Assembly: GCA_964491475.1 (NCBI GenBank)
Contig: CAZBFO010000002.1
Coordinates: 80,501 to 144,500 of the forward strand
Direction: 5' to 3'
Length of the DNA stretch: 64,000 nucleotides
Source of the DNA: an uncultured Gammaproteobacteria bacterium
GTDB taxonomy: Bacteria > Patescibacteriota > Patescibacteriia > SG8-24
A program made the position numbers and the translations under genes. The notes beneath the pieces are model-generated. The model saw only the letters and a program-made list of their open reading frames with translations. It was not told where the DNA came from and ran no database searches. The stretch's first letter is position 1, and each line of letters starts with the position of its first letter. Of this stretch, positions 24,705 through 52,398 are shown in pieces.

Positions 24705-25622
24705 TCAGGAAGATGAGCCTTCCTCGAGAATTTTTGCGACCTCGGCGTCAGCGTCTGCGACGACTTCGGCCTCGTCCAGCTTGAGCCTCACTCGTTCCGT
24801 GGCCTGCCTGTGCTGCAAGAGCAGCGTGCGACGCTCCATCGTTTGCAGCCGGTCGCGTGCTTCGCTGCGCATCGGTTCGGGAAGCGTATCGACGCTGGCA
24901 CGCAAGTAGGCGATGTCTTCGCCAAGCGCTCCGTCCATGCGATTCCTGATCGTGCCCATCGCGCGGAATTGCAGCAGGGCGTCGTCCACGGCGGACGCGT
25001 ATGCGCGAATCGCGACGTGCCCCTTCAGCTCTTCGATTATTTTTTCCTCGCTTATCTTCAGGTGGCGAAGATAAGCGACGAAATCGTCCGGCTCGAGACT
25101 AAGCGCGGTCCGGTCTCCGTTCGAGAGACGGACAAGACGCGTTTCGCAATTGCAGATCTTTCCGAAGAGGGACTTGCGGCCCTGGTCCGAGAGACGAGAC
25201 AGGGGTTCGAGCGCGAAGTGGCCGCCTTCCCCGATGCGTGCTCTGCATATGTCGGCCCACACCTCGACGTTTCGCGCATGCGACTCGTATACGGTGTTGA
25301 TGTCGGTCTCGCTCAAGATTGCGTTGGCGCGCTGGTACGTATGCCAGCGCGACGGTTTCTCCTCCGAACGGAGCGCGTTGAGCATGCTTCGGAGATACGG
25401 CTTCAGATTCTTGTCCATCGCATCCACGGCTTCGTCGTAGCCCAGGGCAGCGATTTCGAGCAGGCGGAGGTTGAAAGTGTCACCATCGTCGCTTTGCGGT
25501 GCCGATTTGACGGCACTGGAGCCTTTTTTTCCGTGGCCGCTTTTCCGCTTCTCTTTCAGCCAGAGCGGAAGAAAGGTCCCTGTCCCCGCCAAACCGACGA
25601 GCATGAGCATGGTCTCGATCAT
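24705..25622 (-). CDS. hypothetical membrane-anchored protein
   Basis: Start MIETMLMLVGLAG (ATG rev 25620-25622); single N-terminal TM helix, rest helical and charged. Confidence 0.45.
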   Translation of the reverse strand: MIETMLMLVGLAGTGTFLPLWLKEKRKSGHGKKGSSAVKSAPQSDDGDTFNLRLLEIAALGYDEAVDAMDKNLKPYLRSMLNALRSEEKPSRWHTYQRANAILSETDINTVYESHARNVEVWADICRARIGEGGHFALEPLSRLSDQGRKSLFGKICNCETRLVRLSNGDRTALSLEPDDFVAYLRHLKISEEKIIEELKGHVAIRAYASAVDDALLQFRAMGTIRNRMDGALGEDIAYLRASVDTLPEPMRSEARDRLQTMERRTLLLQHRQATERVRLKLDEAEVVADADAEVAKILEEGSSS

Positions 25623-25744
25623 GTTTCTTCTCCGCTGTGTAAGGTGCGGCCGGAACGATCTCCGGTGCACCGAAACTAGCAGGAAGGCGTCTCCCGGTCA
25701 ACCACCAGCATTGACCGATCAGGGAATGGTCGGCTTTTTACGTT

Positions 25745-25773
25745 AAGGCATATTTTTTGGCTCATCTTAGCCA
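25745..25773 (+). promoter_or_regulatory. conserved AT-rich motif with palindrome TGGCT-N6-AGCCA (copy 1), 20 nt upstream of a consensus promoter
   Basis: aaGGCATATTTTTTGGCTcatcttAGCCAT; identical 16-mer plus AGCCAT recur at 51382-51409. Confidence 0.35.
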
Positions 25774-25792
25774 TAAATATTGCCATTAATGC

Positions 25793-25821
25793 TTGACAAA
25801 ACAGGCAAAATATGCTATAGT
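25793..25821 (+). promoter_or_regulatory. sigma70-type promoter, perfect TTGACA-17-TATAGT
   Basis: TTGACA 25793-25798; 17-nt spacer; TATAGT 25816-25821; about 60-nt leader to RBS AAAGGA and ATG at 25889. Confidence 0.55.
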
Positions 25822-25888
25822 CCTTTCATCGATAGCCTCACGGCTATTCGCTCATTCCAACGCATACCCCCCAACAAAGGATCATTCA

Positions 25889-26641
25889 ATGCACAAATCG
25901 TTCGGCCTCGCGCTTGTCTCGATGTTCGCTTCGCTGTCCGTTGCCTGCACGCAGGAAACGGCCGAGAGGGTCGTCGAAAAACCTGTCGAGGTCGTCCATT
26001 ACGTGCCGGTGCCGTCTTTGACACCCGCACCGCCTCCGGCCAACGCGGGCGAGGCAGCGCAACCTGCCCCGGCGACCGGTGCCGGAACCGAGCCTGCGGA
26101 GAATGTCCCCGCCTGCGACAAGACCCTCGCGGTCGATGTCTGGCGCGACGATTCTCATGTGGTCCACCCCGGCGACAAGGACGTCGTGCTCCTGCGCGTC
26201 AAAGTGACCGCGCCGTCATGCAGCGATGCCTTGTTCGGCGGAGTGGAGCTCAACATGTTTGCCACACAGCTCTCTCCGCAGTTCAACGCCCCGCTCTGCG
26301 CGAAGACGCCCTGCCTGACGGAAGACGATTTCATCTTCCACGATTGGAAGTTGAGGACGGCGGGCGATCTGGTCGTGCACAACGGCGGCGCGGACGCCTG
26401 GCATGGGTGGAACGTGCCGCAGGTGGTGGACATCCGTGCATGGTTTGACGTTCTCCCGAAAGGAGAATCTCGTTACATCGAGATCACGGCCGATCTGGCC
26501 GAGAATTACGTCATGCTTGCGGAGGGGCTGCGCTACCGCGCCTACGTGCGTTCCGTTTACACCGACATGCCGTCGAAAATCACCGATCATACGCTTCCCT
26601 TCGACAGCACGGCAGACACGGTCATCGTGAACTCCCGCTGA
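25889..26641 (+). CDS. lipoprotein with Cys-containing mature domain
   Basis: MHKSFGLALVSMFASLSVAC (lipobox LSVAC); the track ORF starts earlier at 25793 but the ATG at 25889 carries the RBS. Confidence 0.55.
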   Translation: MHKSFGLALVSMFASLSVACTQETAERVVEKPVEVVHYVPVPSLTPAPPPANAGEAAQPAPATGAGTEPAENVPACDKTLAVDVWRDDSHVVHPGDKDVVLLRVKVTAPSCSDALFGGVELNMFATQLSPQFNAPLCAKTPCLTEDDFIFHDWKLRTAGDLVVHNGGADAWHGWNVPQVVDIRAWFDVLPKGESRYIEITADLAENYVMLAEGLRYRAYVRSVYTDMPSKITDHTLPFDSTADTVIVNSR

Positions 26642-40794: not shown

Positions 40795-40850
40795 TTGGTG
40801 TAGAGTCTCTTCATAGACCTGTTTCATCAATGAAACTGGTCCTTTTTTTA

Positions 40851-40877
40851 GCCAAAATTGCCATGCAATTTTGGCGC
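40851..40877. promoter_or_regulatory. perfect 11-bp inverted repeat (GCCAAAATTGC-cat-GCAATTTTGGC) in the nusA leader region
   Basis: AT-rich palindrome about 100 nt upstream of nusA ATG, in an otherwise GC-rich genome. Confidence 0.3.
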
Positions 40878-50465: not shown

Positions 50466-51236
50466 TCAGCGGTCGATGCCCATGCAGTCGATGGCGATCT
50501 CGATGCGATCGCGTTCGGGCGTGCCATTCGGGAACAGGGACCGCCAGTGGGCGATGATGCTGTCCACGGCTTCGCGTTCGCGTATTTCCTTGCTCGGCTG
50601 ATGGTAGTGGTTGCCCAGCACCAGCGGGACGCCGAGGTCGAGCATGACGTAGCGCAGGTCGGCGACGGCAATCATGTCGAGGACGAAGTCGATGTCCTCC
50701 ATTCCGCCGATACGGTCGCAACGGGCGTCGAATCCTCCGAAAAGGAAGCCGAACGCCTCGATGCGGATGAGCATTCCCGTGTTTCGGGGATGCCGGTAAG
50801 ATCGGCCGAGGCTGACGACGTTGCCGTCCTGACGGCCTTCGAAGGTCGTGCCGACCACGCCGACCGATTCGTCATCGGTCGCCGCGTCCAACATGCGTTC
50901 GACGTGCTCGGCCGTGAACTTCGCCTCAACCGATACGGTGAACACGAAACGGAAGCGGAGCTTTCGGTCTCGGATGTTGGCCATCCTCACCGCCATGAGG
51001 GCGATGTTGAGGGCGTTGGCCCAGGAGTATCCCTCCTGCATTTCGATCAACTGGACCCGCCCGTTCTCGAGGTGTGCGCCGAGGAAGTGCCGCGTCGCTC
51101 CCTTGTCCCGTGCGGCGTCGGTGACCACGATGATCTTGCCGATGCCCATCGCAGACAGCGAACGGACCTGTTTTTCGACATATTTGTTGTTGAATGACCG
51201 GACGATGGCGCAGGTAGATGAGAGCTTGCCTTGCAT
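50466..51236 (-). CDS. GT-A-fold (family 2-like) glycosyltransferase
   Basis: Start MQGKLSS, with GGAGA before ATG (rev 51234-51236); IIVVTDAARD... and DxD-like EDID motifs. Confidence 0.5.
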   Translation of the reverse strand: MQGKLSSTCAIVRSFNNKYVEKQVRSLSAMGIGKIIVVTDAARDKGATRHFLGAHLENGRVQLIEMQEGYSWANALNIALMAVRMANIRDRKLRFRFVFTVSVEAKFTAEHVERMLDAATDDESVGVVGTTFEGRQDGNVVSLGRSYRHPRNTGMLIRIEAFGFLFGGFDARCDRIGGMEDIDFVLDMIAVADLRYVMLDLGVPLVLGNHYHQPSKEIREREAVDSIIAHWRSLFPNGTPERDRIEIAIDCMGIDR

Positions 51237-51380
51237 TGTGTCTCCATTGCCCCATTCGAGGGCGCAGGTTGTCGATTTCTTGGCGTCACCGCGGCCCATT
51301 TGAGGCCGAGGGACGGTCTTTGGCGTATCCCAAAAGACATTAAAATATAGCACATTTCGGCCCTTTTGTCAATCTTGCTA

Positions 51381-51409
51381 TGGCATATTTTTTGGCTTAA
51401 TAAAGCCAT
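51381..51409 (+). promoter_or_regulatory. conserved AT-rich motif with palindrome ATGGCT-N6-AGCCAT (copy 2)
   Basis: aTGGCATATTTTTTGGCTtaataaAGCCAT; shares an identical 16-mer (GGCATATTTTTTGGCT) plus AGCCAT with 25747-25774. Confidence 0.35.
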
Positions 51410-51418
51410 TTTTTTATT

Positions 51419-51447
51419 TTGACAGGGTAAGGAAAAATGTGTATTTT
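51419..51447 (+). promoter_or_regulatory. candidate promoter TTGACA-17-TATTTT upstream of the epimerase gene (alternative: TTGCTA-17-TAATAA at 51375-51403)
   Basis: Consensus -35 box; the -10 would leave only a very short leader before ATG 51457, so the upstream alternative may be the functional one. Confidence 0.35.
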
Positions 51448-51456
51448 GAGGAGGAT

Positions 51457-52398
51457 ATGCCAAAATCACCTTCAAAAGGAACGGTCATTGTTACTGGGGG
51501 TGCCGGATTCATCGGTTCTCACCTGGTTGAGCGGCTGCTCAAAGAGGGCTATAGGACGGTCGTGATCGACGACCTGTCGTCCGGTCAAAAAAAGTTTGTT
51601 CCGGCGAAGGCGAAGTTCGTGTTCATGAACATAGTCGATCCGCGAATCAGCGAGGTGTTCAAGAAGGAGAAGCCGGTCTACGTCTTTCACCTCGCTGCGC
51701 AAATCAACGTACGTCATTCCGTGCAGAACCCCATCCGGGACGCCGAAATCAACATCCACGGTTCCCTGCGGGTGCTTGAGGCGAGCGTGCATGCGGGAGT
51801 GAAGAAAATCATCTTCTCGTCTTCTGGCGGAGCCATCTATCACGGACTAAACGTTCGCCCGACGCCGGAGAACGTGCCGTGCATGCCGCTCTCCCCCTAT
51901 GGCGTTGCAAAGCTCGCCTTTGAACTGTACTTGCATACTGCCTGCCACAACTACGGCATGAGATACGCAGCGCTTCGCTACGCCAACGTGTACGGCCCTC
52001 GCCAGAGCCTGAAAGGGGAGGCGGGTGTAATCAGTTTCTTCATCCGAAAACTGCTGGCACGAGAGGTTCCCGTGATTTTCGGCGACGGCGAACAGACGCG
52101 CGATTTCGTCTACGTCGACGACGTGGTCGAGGCGAACATCCGTGCCATGCGGACTTCAGCCCACGGCCCCTTCAATATCGGAACCGGCATCGAGACGTCC
52201 CTGCACGACGTGGCTGAGCTGATCAGGAAGGAACTCAACACTGATATCGAGTGCGACCACGGTCCGGCGGTCGTCGGCGAAGAACGAAACAGCTCGTTGG
52301 ACTGCACTGCGGCGAACATGGCCTTCAAGTGGCGACCGAAGGTCAACATCAATAAGGGGATCGCCAGGACCGTTGCCTGGTTCCGGAATAATGTCTGA
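51457..52398 (+). CDS. NAD-dependent epimerase/dehydratase (UDP-sugar 4-epimerase-like SDR)
   Basis: TGGAGFIGSHL Rossmann motif, YGVAKLAFE (YxxxK); RBS GAGGAGGA before ATG 51457 (the track ORF starts at GTG 51439). Confidence 0.8.
   Translation: MPKSPSKGTVIVTGGAGFIGSHLVERLLKEGYRTVVIDDLSSGQKKFVPAKAKFVFMNIVDPRISEVFKKEKPVYVFHLAAQINVRHSVQNPIRDAEINIHGSLRVLEASVHAGVKKIIFSSSGGAIYHGLNVRPTPENVPCMPLSPYGVAKLAFELYLHTACHNYGMRYAALRYANVYGPRQSLKGEAGVISFFIRKLLAREVPVIFGDGEQTRDFVYVDDVVEANIRAMRTSAHGPFNIGTGIETSLHDVAELIRKELNTDIECDHGPAVVGEERNSSLDCTAANMAFKWRPKVNINKGIARTVAWFRNNV

What the first reader, a model, noticed from the sequence alone, without database searches (positions are those of the whole stretch)
25745..25821. 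Conserved 28-nt AT-rich motif with palindrome TGGCT-N6-AGCCA upstream of a perfect consensus promoter (copy 1 of 2)
The sequence GGCATATTTTTTGGCT-N6-AGCCAT at 25747-25774 is repeated at 51382-51409 with an identical 16-mer and identical right arm. A 16-nt AT-rich identity occurring twice in a 64-kb window of mid-60s %GC is very unlikely by chance. Both copies lie just upstream of TTGACA -35 boxes (here TTGACA-17-TATAGT). The dyad symmetry suggests an operator for a dimeric regulator, and the T6 tract may also act as an UP-like element. The downstream genes differ (a Cys-containing lipoprotein here; the epimerase and the giant-adhesin gene string at the other site), pointing to a small envelope-related regulon.
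Basis: seen in the sequence. Interest (0 to 1): 0.6.

Follow-up and report, generated by a model that had tools for sequence, protein, structure and literature searches.

The report
Conserved promoter-upstream dyad of CPR bacteria
The repeated 28-base motif is real and belongs to a short T-tract-plus-palindrome DNA element that recurs next to strong promoters across the ultra-small Patescibacteria (CPR) bacteria, most likely as a docking site for a DNA-binding protein nobody has identified.

Summary
GGCATATTTTTTGGCT-N6-AGCCAT occurs exactly twice (25747-25774 and 51382-51409, + strand), against 0 of 100 shuffles. Both copies lie in divergent intergenic regions next to near-consensus sigma-70 promoters.

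It is more than a local repeat. Site 1 (+) and site 2 (-) align over about 53 nt, promoter included. Site 1 is a four-half-site palindrome (GGCA / GGCT / AGCC / TGCC, spaced 12, 10 and 12 bp).

The core TATTTTTTGGCT-N6-AGCCAT gave 89 hits in 596 Gb of reference genomes, about 17 expected. Thirty-two are in Patescibacteria-labelled MAGs, 16 of them Peribacteria or Peregrinibacteria. These are mostly intergenic, and outward TTGACA promoters start 17-46 bp from the dyad at 20 of 40 sites.

Two orthologous Peribacteria locus pairs keep the motif while their flanks are scrambled. Close orthologues of the window's own loci show uncompensated changes in one arm, which argues against an RNA hairpin.

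No Rfam family, sigma-54 geometry, mobile element or att-site explanation fits. No cognate protein was found, neighbouring genes are heterogeneous, and an envelope regulon is not supported.

Best reading (about 0.45): a low-copy, sequence-specific protein-binding site upstream of promoters. I found no published description of it.

The parts
25715..25739 (+). Terminator-like hairpin CCGATCAGGGAATGGTCGG followed by T5, 8 nt upstream of the motif, with no + strand gene ahead of it.
   Evidence: The same arrangement (canonical hairpin plus T run directly before the motif) occurs in L018, L024, L047, L049, L050 and L078.
25747..25762 (+). Left 16-mer GGCATATTTTTTGGCT: outer half-site GGCA, T6 tract, inner arm (T)GGCT.
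   Evidence: It is identical to 51382-51397.
25758..25773 (.). Dyad core TGGCT-catctt-AGCCA, centred at 25765.5.
   Evidence: The centre lies 27.5 bp upstream of the first T of the -35 box.
25769..25784 (-). Right 16-mer AGCCATAAATATTGCC, an inverted copy of the left 16-mer (12 of 16), which makes site 1 a 38-bp palindrome with four GGCW half-sites.
   Evidence: (z -4.1).
25793..25821 (+). Promoter TTGACA-17-(TGc)TATAGT for the lipoprotein gene at 25889-26641.
   Evidence: 11 of 12 matches, TG extension. The promoter is conserved in orthologue L002.
25673..25701 (-). Candidate promoter TTGACC-17-(TGc)TAGTTT for the orphan membrane-protein gene at 24705-25622 (-).
   Evidence: d = 64.5 from the dyad centre. 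This is inferred only.
51344..51372 (-). Promoter TTGACA-17-(TGc)TATATT for the GT2-like glycosyltransferase gene at 50466-51242 (-).
   Evidence: The -35 and -10 are invariant in orthologues L092 and L097. The dyad centre is 28.5 bp upstream.
51382..51397 (+). 16-mer GGCATATTTTTTGGCT, copy 2.
51393..51408 (.). Dyad core TGGCT-taataa-AGCCA, centred at 51400.5, followed by T7AT4.
   Evidence: Folding energies are -8.2 kcal/mol as RNA (z -0.96) and -5.4 kcal/mol as DNA.
51419..51447 (+). Promoter TTGACA-17-TATTTT for the epimerase gene at 51457-52398 and the + strand genes that follow it.
   Evidence: The dyad centre is 18.5 bp upstream. The -10 ends only 9 nt before the ATG.
40851..40875 (.). 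Possibly related third element: the perfect inverted repeat GCCAAAATTGC-cat-GCAATTTTGGC straight after a terminator plus T7. The - strand reads ATGGCAATTTTGGCT.
   Evidence: z -6.3. Its relatedness to the motif is only a resemblance.

Best explanation
The element is a DNA-level cis-element of the promoter-upstream region. It is a 24-30 bp site made of a T tract and the dyad TGGCT-N6-AGCCA (CPR consensus TATTTTTT-GGCT-TAWWTA-AGCC-ATTT). I propose that a sequence-specific, probably dimeric, DNA-binding protein conserved across Patescibacteria recognises it.

In this genome the site is extended by outer GGCA/TGCC half-sites 12 bp from the inner arms. All four half-sites therefore lie roughly on one face of the helix, which would suit two cooperating dimers.

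The dyad centre sits about 53-64 bp upstream of the predicted start sites of three promoters: the lipoprotein gene, the GT2-like gene and the epimerase gene string. From there a bound protein, helped by the bendable T tracts, could act in one of two ways. It could be an upstream (class-I-like) activator or architectural factor, or it could be a barrier separating adjacent transcription units.

Shown: the motif, its conservation and its promoter adjacency. Inferred: that a protein binds it, and what that binding does.
For: - Non-random repeat: 0 of 100 shuffles.
- Sequence-specific family. The genome scan gave 89 hits against about 17 expected (596 Gb x 2 strands / 4^18). Thirty-two are in MAGs named as Patescibacteria, which hold only a few percent of the bases (my estimate). 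Several more hits with the same architecture carry doubtful labels.
- Selection on sequence rather than on any hairpin. T-run-preceded hairpins with other stems are rare in the same loci.
- Phylogenetic footprints. At the orthologous pairs L031/L081 (downstream of thyA-folA) and L049/L085 (upstream of the HU gene) the flanks are only 43-50% identical and the N6 spacer shares 3 of 6 and 0 of 6 bases, yet both members of each pair carry the full motif.
- The spacer consensus TAWWTA extends the dyad to its centre, leaving too small a loop for a hairpin.
- Arm changes in orthologues of the window's loci are never compensated. A protein site tolerates this; a 5-bp stem does not.
- Promoter adjacency. 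There are 24 outward TTGACA-17-TAnnnT promoters starting 17-46 bp from the centre at 20 of 40 sites, against 1.7 expected from the locus-wide density, and they occur on both sides.
- Low copy number. There are two in 64 kb here, and apart from tandem partners essentially none elsewhere in about 310 kb of CPR loci. This fits a specific site, not a REP-like repeat.
- Tandem copies 19-35 bp apart occur in L036, L085 and L052/L067.
Against: - No binding protein was identified. Pfam finds no transcription factor among 29 window proteins, and hyp205 belongs to a small family with an unusable model.
- The flanks are not symmetric. T runs lie on the same strand on both sides, which a simple symmetric dimer does not explain.
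- Distance to the -35 box is variable and not significantly phased.
- Neighbouring genes are functionally heterogeneous.
- In the closest orthologues one arm has drifted, so the dyad is not strictly required at these loci.
- The CPR set was ascertained with a pattern that fixes 18 bases. The consensus at those positions, and the joint 18/18 in ortholog pairs, are therefore partly by construction.
Confidence: 0.45

Rival explanations
1. It acts at the RNA level as an intrinsic terminator or insulator. The top-strand transcript U6-GGCU-N6-AGCC-AUUU folds into a short hairpin followed by U residues and stops read-through or spurious transcription before it enters the downstream promoter.
For: - Site 2 is flagged as terminator-like.
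- The right flank in CPR copies is T-rich without being forced by the search: 82%, 71% and 79% T at +1 to +3.
- About a fifth of copies follow a canonical terminator directly.
- In L052 a twin hairpin has the classical A-run/T-run form.
Against: - Both window copies have a divergent gene on the upstream side, so there is no annotated transcript to terminate. By crude ORF-based gene calls this also looks like the commonest arrangement in the CPR set.
- Site 1 has no T run after the hairpin (AGCCATAAAT).
- The stem is weak: -8.2 kcal/mol, z -0.96. Real terminators beside it have long GC-rich stems.
- A terminator stem does not need a sequence conserved across phyla.
- Arm changes in orthologues are uncompensated.
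- Where a gene runs into the motif from the right (DHFR in L031/L081, TsaD in L024), the RNA would read hairpin plus A run.
Confidence: 0.2
2. It is a protein-independent DNA structural element. Two in-phase T tracts about 20 bp apart, around a GC clamp, give curved or easily bent DNA, or an UP-like contact for the RNA polymerase alpha subunit, and this boosts adjacent strong promoters.
For: - The T6 tract is the best-conserved feature in orthologues of both window loci.
- For the leftward promoter at site 2 the A6 tract falls at about -56 to -51, the distal UP subsite zone (read directly).
- The copies lie next to near-consensus extended -10 promoters.
Against: - It does not explain why TGGCT and AGCCA themselves are kept across phyla while the spacer and flanks vary.
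- The distance of the T tract from the -35 box ranges over about 30 bp, mostly outside the -59..-38 UP zone.
Confidence: 0.15
3. There is no dedicated function. The two window copies are similar because a promoter cassette was copied or homogenised within this genome, and the CPR matches are compositional coincidences.
For: - Site 1 (+) and site 2 (-) share a 53-nt stretch including the promoter.
- The GGCATA extension is not found in other CPR copies or in JGI metagenomes, which gave coding hits only.
Against: - Each locus already carries the element in relatives at 59-74% protein identity.
- The enrichment in CPR and the ortholog-pair footprints are hard to obtain by chance.
- Low-GC Firmicutes and Bacteroidota, far more abundant in the collection, gave few intergenic hits.
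Confidence: 0.1
4. It is a sigma-54 (-24/-12) promoter: TGGCAT-N5-TTGGCT resembles TGGCAC-N5-TTGCW.
For: At site 2, TGGCA and TTG fall at the consensus positions (read).
Against: - The GG...GC spacing is N11 in the 16-mer and N9 across the dyad, whereas N10 is required.
- Site 1 lacks the leading T.
- Other CPR copies lack GGCA altogether.
Confidence: 0.02

Closest known systems
CRP/FNR-type class I activator sites (TGTGA-N6-TCACA)
   Same: The geometry is the same: a 5-N6-5 dyad with A/T-rich flanks. It lies upstream of the -35 box, with centres here at about -53.5, -62.5 and -63.5, and can be shared by divergent promoters.
   Different: The half-site sequence is different. No CRP-family gene was seen. 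Spacing to the promoter shows no significant phasing. The T runs are on the same strand on both sides.
ComA-type multi-half-site activator sites of NarL/LuxR response regulators (TTGCGG-N4-CCGCAA plus a third element). This comparison is from memory of the B. subtilis literature.
   Same: There is an inverted pair plus extra half-site(s) about one turn away, located upstream of -35. Here that is GGCA-N8-GGCT-N6-AGCC(-N8-TGCC).
   Different: The sequence and spacer length differ, and the outer half-sites are seen only in this genome. It is a lead only, not tested.
Intrinsic (Rho-independent) terminators
   Same: A short GC-containing hairpin followed by T residues at site 2 and in most CPR copies. 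Copies often sit next to true terminators.
   Different: The stem sequence is conserved and the stem is weak. There is a T run on the 5' side. Neither window site has an upstream co-directional gene, and site 1 has no T tail.
UP elements and curved upstream DNA
   Same: A/T tracts upstream of strong promoters.
   Different: There is a conserved GC dyad between the tracts, and the distance to the -35 box is variable.
IHF/Fis-type architectural sites
   Same: An asymmetric A tract beside a specific core, found in promoter-upstream regions, and twice located upstream of the HU gene (L049, L085).
   Different: There is no match to WATCAANNNNTTR or to the Fis consensus, and CPR HU is not known to be sequence-specific. 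This is speculative.
REP/MITE-like intergenic palindromes
   Same: A short intergenic palindrome, sometimes in tandem.
   Different: Copy number is low. It is conserved across phyla rather than being species-specific. No associated transposase was seen.

Membership tests
Sigma-54 promoter | GG and GC doublets separated by exactly 10 nt (TGGCAC-N5-TTGCW). | tested here: not met
   GG-N11-GC in GGCATATTTTTTGGCT and GG-N9-GC across TGGCT-N6-AGCCA, read.
Intrinsic terminator | A stable GC-rich hairpin immediately followed by a U tract. | tested here: inconclusive
   Site 2 has a 6-bp stem at -8.2 kcal/mol (z -0.96) plus T7. Site 1 has the hairpin but is followed by ATAAAT.
Intrinsic terminator | It lies at the 3' end of a co-directional transcription unit. 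| tested here: not met
   The upstream genes at both sites are on the opposite strand. By crude ORF-based gene calls this is also the commonest arrangement among CPR copies.
Structured RNA family (Rfam) | A match to a curated covariance model. | tested here: not met
   Only chance-level hits, with E of 0.4 or more and far below the gathering scores. The whole window yields tRNAs only.
RNA hairpin maintained by selection | Compensatory changes in the stem among orthologues. | tested here: not met
   L002 has TGTTT/AGCCA, L092 has TAGCT/AGCCA and L097 has TGGCT/CGGCT. All are one-sided changes.
Palindromic transcription-factor operator | Dyad symmetry with conserved half-sites and a free spacer, kept at orthologous loci. 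| tested here: met
   Caveat: the arms were fixed by the search pattern.
Palindromic transcription-factor operator | A cognate DNA-binding protein and demonstrated binding. | not testable with these tools
   No transcription factor was found in the window.
Palindromic transcription-factor operator | A coherent regulon. | tested here: not met
   Adjacent genes are heterogeneous, and there is no enrichment of signal/TM proteins (7/33 vs 23/117, p 0.81).
UP element | An A/T-rich tract at -59 to -38 of the promoter it serves. | tested here: inconclusive
   This holds for the leftward promoter at site 2 (A6 at about -56..-51). Across the CPR copies the dyad-to-(-35) distance ranges from 17 to 46 bp, so the T tract does not sit at a fixed position relative to the -35.
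Mobile element, att site or duplicated fragment | Repeats that flank or belong to a mobile segment (integrase or transposase, island-like gene content, absence from orthologous loci). | tested here: not met
   The 25.6 kb between the copies carries aaRS genes, GroES/EL, YidC and RF2. Synteny and the element itself are present in relatives.
REP-like repeat or DNA uptake sequence | High copy number (hundreds per genome). | tested here: not met
   Two copies in 64 kb. Apart from tandem partners, about one further exact dyad was seen in roughly 310 kb of CPR loci.

The most novel reading that the evidence does not exclude
The motif marks a cis-regulatory system of its own that spans the Patescibacteria superphylum. 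An unidentified, broadly conserved DNA-binding protein (a global or architectural regulator, or a transcription-unit insulator) docks on T-tract/TGGCT-N6-AGCCA sites beside strong promoters in these minimal genomes. Lineage-specific elaborations exist, such as the four-half-site version seen here.
Probability: 0.3. Interest if true: 0.75.

Novelty: new member of a known kind. Interest (0 to 1): 0.55.

Why it matters
CPR/Patescibacteria make up a large share of bacterial diversity, are almost all uncultured, and encode very few recognisable regulators. Almost nothing is known about how they control transcription.

A short DNA element conserved from Peribacteria to Saccharibacteria and tied to promoters would be a rare handle on that problem. 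It can be used as bait to identify its binding protein, for example in cultivable Saccharibacteria. It could also help annotate promoters and transcription-unit boundaries in thousands of MAGs, and test whether minimal genomes rely on one global architectural factor.

If it turns out to be only a weak terminator or a bendable spacer, it is an ordinary feature of compact AT-rich intergenic DNA.

Tried and rejected
- **Sigma-54 promoter.** The spacing is off by one in both possible readings.
- **attL/attR of an island.** The copies are direct repeats 25.6 kb apart, but the interval holds housekeeping genes, and relatives have the element at the same GT2/epimerase locus.
- **Known RNA family.** Nothing was found in Rfam.
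- **The motif as its own promoter.** TTGGCT as a -35, or TATTTT/CATATT as a -10, works only at site 2 (TTGGCT-17-TATTTT). There is no partner hexamer at site 1 or in the CPR matrix.
- **Small ORF starting at ATGGCT on the - strand.** Reading frames are not conserved.
- **Regulator encoded nearby.** Pfam on 29 window proteins found no DNA-binding domain. hyp305 is an orphan. hyp205 has 43 distant relatives and a model with pLDDT 40.
- **Envelope regulon.** The crude N-terminal hydrophobicity test was negative.
- **Helical phasing of the dyad relative to -35.** Rayleigh test not significant, permutation p about 0.25.
- **Metagenome scan for the extended 26-nt version.** All 8 hits are coding, 7 of them in one conserved ORF family.
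- **Viral-contig scan.** It gave 15 hits. A few show the CPR-like terminator-motif-TTGACA layout (L107, L110, L120). Most are in low-GC temperate-phage regions between repressor and integrase genes and are not informative.
- **Literature searches.** Six queries, including the literal sequences, found no description of the motif.
- **Recurrent neighbour families.** An all-against-all BLAST of neighbouring ORFs returned only orthologous loci, plus HU (two related Peribacteria) and 3D-domain proteins (Moraniibacteriota and Saccharibacteria).

Full report
**1. The observation**

The sequence GGCATATTTTTTGGCT-N6-AGCCAT is present at 25747-25774 and 51382-51409 on the + strand. With up to three mismatches allowed there are no other matches in the window, and none in 100 dinucleotide-preserving shuffles. 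The exact dyad TGGCT-N6-AGCCA also occurs only at these two places. The window is 61.7% G+C and both sites lie in AT-rich islands. The repeat is therefore real and not a chance event.

**2. Local anatomy**

Both sites are divergent intergenic regions.

At site 1 the gene to the left is an orphan membrane-anchored protein on the - strand (24705-25622). It has no Pfam family and no homologue among 5.8 billion clusters. The gene to the right is a lipoprotein at 25889-26641.
- A near-consensus extended -10 promoter, TTGACA-17-TGcTATAGT, lies at 25793-25821.
- A terminator-like hairpin plus T5 sits at 25715-25739 on the + strand, although no + strand gene precedes it.
- A weaker candidate promoter for the leftward gene is TTGACC-17-TGcTAGTTT at 25701..25673.

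At site 2 a GT2-like glycosyltransferase gene (50466-51242, -) is served by TTGACA-17-TGcTATATT at 51372..51344. The epimerase gene (51457-52398, +) is served by TTGACA-17-TATTTT at 51419-51447. It is followed on the same strand by Sua5, MFS, KsgA, a TSP3-repeat protein and a giant ORF.

The dyad centres lie 27.5 bp (site 1, rightward promoter), 28.5 bp (site 2, leftward) and 18.5 bp (site 2, rightward) upstream of the first T of the -35 boxes. That corresponds to about -62.5, -63.5 and -53.5 from the inferred start sites.

**3. The repeat is larger than described**

Site 1 is an imperfect 38-bp palindrome, GGCATATTTTTTGGCT-catctt-AGCCATAAATATTGCC. It has four GGCW half-sites spaced 12, 10 and 12 bp apart, and it folds with z = -4.1.

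Site 1 read on the + strand aligns with site 2 read on the - strand over 53 nt: AGCCA-W7-TGCCAT-N7/8-TTGACAAAA-...-TGCTATA. Thirty-nine of 53 positions match, and 0 of 1000 shuffles score as well.

Part of that similarity is the general strong-promoter consensus of these organisms, TTGACAAAA...AAATRTGCTATAAT. The same consensus is seen in L002, L018, L052 and L054. The part upstream of the -35 box is the motif.

**4. Relatives elsewhere**

The source genome is an NCBI MAG (386-kb contig) also seen in one Logan assembly. It is a high-GC CPR bacterium. The nearest named homologues of its GT2-like protein come from Ca. Liptonbacteria and Moraniibacteriota.

I scanned 596 Gb of GTDB species representatives for TATTTTTTGGCTNNNNNNAGCCAT, which has 18 fixed bases. 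About 17 matches are expected for equiprobable bases. The scan returned 89 loci, none of them the source genome.
- About 35 hits lie in long ORFs of unrelated taxa. Several of these encode YFLAxxSH, the histidine-kinase H-box.
- Thirty-two hits are in MAGs named as Patescibacteria. Sixteen are Peribacteria or Peregrinibacteria. The rest are Saccharibacteria, Magasanikiibacteriota, Moraniibacteriota, Nomurabacteria, Doudnabacteria, Gracilibacteria and Minisyncoccota.
- Several more hits show the same architecture but carry doubtful labels. For example L053 is labelled 'Gammaproteobacteria', yet it encodes a ValRS 53% identical to the window's, next to a TyrRS.

Patescibacteria make up only a few percent of the bases of that collection. 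That figure is my estimate from general knowledge of GTDB, not a computed value. On it, the enrichment is of the order of 20-fold.

Low-GC Firmicutes and Bacteroidota are far more abundant in the collection and rich in terminators, yet they gave only a handful of intergenic hits.

**5. What is conserved**

In 34 independent CPR copies the unconstrained positions show two things. The spacer has the consensus TAWWTA, which extends the dyad to GGCTTA..TAAGCC. The right flank is T-rich, with 82%, 71% and 79% T at +1 to +3.

In the same loci, hairpins preceded by a T run but with any other 5-bp stem are rare, and none recurs like TGGCT.

Apart from tandem partners in L036, L085, L024 and L052/L067, about one further exact dyad is found in roughly 310 kb of CPR loci. 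The element is therefore sequence-specific and low-copy.

Two pairs of orthologous loci in different Peribacteria species both carry the full motif. These are L031/L081 (beside thyA-folA) and L049/L085 (upstream of the HU gene). Their 80-nt flanks are only 43-50% identical, and their spacers share 3 of 6 and 0 of 6 bases. Both members of each pair were found with the pattern, so the 18/18 match is by construction. The evidence is their joint presence at orthologous positions.

**6. Orthologues of the window's own loci**

| Locus | Relation to the window | State of the element |
|---|---|---|
| L002 | only homologue of the lipoprotein, 59% identity | keeps the promoter, the T6 tract and AGCCATAAAT; left arm is TGTTT |
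| L092 | GT2-like protein 74% identical, same synteny | TATTTTTTAGCT-TAACAG-AGCCATTTT |
| L097 | GT2-like protein 73% identical, same synteny | CATTTTTTTGGCT-AAAAAT-CGGCTTTTT |
| L093 | GT2-like protein 66% identical | a different palindrome at the same place |
| L095 | GT2-like protein 61% identical | nothing comparable |

The T tract and one arm persist and the other arm drifts, and no change is compensated. A protein site tolerates that kind of change. A 5-bp RNA stem does not.

These comparisons also show that the perfect dyad is not indispensable at these loci. The GGCATA extension shared by the two window copies is absent from other CPR copies. It is also absent from JGI metagenomes, where the eight hits are all coding.

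**7. Context in CPR**

Near-consensus outward promoters start 17-46 bp from the dyad centre at 20 of 40 sites. That is 24 promoters, against 1.7 expected from the locus-wide density, and they occur on either side. The enrichment would be smaller against an intergenic-only background, which I could not compute reliably.

The distances show no significant helical periodicity.

Contexts include:
- divergent promoter pairs, as in the window;
- positions just after a canonical terminator (six clear cases);
- positions abutting the stop codon of a gene that runs into the motif from the AGCCAT side, where the RNA would read hairpin plus A run (DHFR in L031/L081, TsaD in L024).

Genes whose 5' ends face the motif are heterogeneous. 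They include HU, TopA, a sigma-70-family protein, HrcA, NusG, phosphomannomutase, glycosyltransferases, 3D-domain and LysM/CHAP wall hydrolases, a giant surface protein and many small unknowns. N-terminal hydrophobic segments are not enriched (7/33 vs 23/117).

**8. Interpretation**

The motif usually lies in DNA that no annotated transcript crosses. Its sequence, not merely its ability to pair, is conserved across phyla. Its arm changes are uncompensated. These three facts point to recognition of double-stranded DNA by a protein, so I commit to that reading (about 0.45).

The 5-N6-5 dyad suits a dimer, and the four half-sites on one helical face at site 1 suit two dimers. The position at about -53 to -64 from three promoters suits an upstream activator or architectural role, or a barrier between transcription units.

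Three things remain unexplained:
- the same-strand T runs on both sides, an asymmetry a symmetric dimer does not need;
- the variable distance to the promoter;
- the lack of a coherent regulon.

Together these hint at a general architectural or insulating role rather than a narrow regulon. They also keep two rivals alive:
- a weak terminator or insulator hairpin (0.2);
- a protein-independent bent or UP-like element (0.15).

Pure coincidence or cassette homogenisation (0.1) and a sigma-54 promoter (0.02) are unlikely.

**9. Comparison with known systems and novelty**

In geometry and placement the site works most like a CRP-type class I site, or a multi-half-site response-regulator site such as the ComA box. 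The ComA comparison is from memory and was not tested.

It is not a member of any family I could test:
- the sigma-54 spacing fails;
- terminator criteria fail at both window sites;
- no Rfam model matches;
- copy number excludes REP-like repeats or DNA uptake sequences;
- gene content and synteny exclude att sites or a mobile fragment.

Six literature searches, including the literal sequences, found no description of it. That library does not cover subscription journals.

I rate it a new member of a known kind: a promoter-upstream palindromic cis-element. Its distribution across a whole superphylum and its unknown partner protein make it moderately interesting (0.55).

Noticed in passing
window 40816-40875: A canonical terminator hairpin plus T7 is followed directly by a perfect 11-bp inverted repeat, GCCAAAATTGC-cat-GCAATTTTGGC (DNA fold -20.5 kcal/mol for the region, z -6.3). 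On the - strand it reads ATGGCAATTTTGGCT, a shortened form of the 16-mer ATGGCATATTTTTTGGCT. It may be a degenerate third copy of the element.
   Followed up: partly
window 51415-51459: The predicted epimerase promoter's -10 (51442-47) ends only 9 nt before the ATG, and GGAGG is 2 nt from the ATG. The mRNA would therefore be nearly leaderless. Alternatively TTGGCT (51392, the motif's own left arm)-17-TATTTT (51415) is the real promoter. Orthologue L092 has a normal leader of about 30 nt.
   Followed up: partly
window 25830-25848: The 5' UTR of the lipoprotein gene contains a small hairpin, GATAGCC-tcac-GGCTATT (z -3.3), right after the predicted transcription start.
   Followed up: no
L015, L030 (and other coding hits): In coding DNA the search pattern TAT TTT TTG GCT NNN NNN AGC CAT encodes YFLAxxSH, the phospho-acceptor H-box of histidine kinases. 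This accounts for several non-CPR hits.
   Followed up: yes
L099-L103, L105, L106: The 26-nt extended pattern hits one conserved ORF family in JGI metagenomes. On the reverse strand it reads ...EQAKKYARLN.VPFVYSSNG...FVEYD. These hits are unrelated to the motif.
   Followed up: partly
L009, L053, L024, L028, L083: These MAG contigs are labelled Gammaproteobacteria, Bdellovibrionales or Pirellulales, but they show CPR-like promoters and the motif. L053 encodes a ValRS 53% and a TyrRS 44% identical to the window's. The taxonomic labels look unreliable.
   Followed up: partly
L059 about 2720-2800: In a Doudnabacteria contig a parS-like palindrome, GTTTCACGTGAAAC, lies 3 nt to the left of the motif. 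A second ACGTGAAAC lies about 14 nt to its right.
   Followed up: no
L113 4374-4635 (also L114, L118; a second family is L108, L115, L117, L119, L121): In low-GC temperate-phage-like contigs TTTTTTGGCTTAGGTAAGCC sits between a cI-like repressor gene and an integrase gene. It is flanked by inverted sets of TGTTCA(C/T) repeats, which could be arm-type sites or operators.
   Followed up: partly
L024 3272-3354: There are two copies in opposite flank polarity. One contains the TsaD stop codon in its spacer. The other lies directly after a TATAAT box and 9 nt before the start of a GT2 gene, so it would form the 5' end of that mRNA.
   Followed up: partly
window 24705-25622 (-) and 25889-26641 (+): The genes flanking site 1 are lineage-restricted. 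The 305-aa membrane-anchored protein has no homologue at all, and the lipoprotein has a single homologue (59% identity) among 5.8 billion protein clusters.
   Followed up: yes
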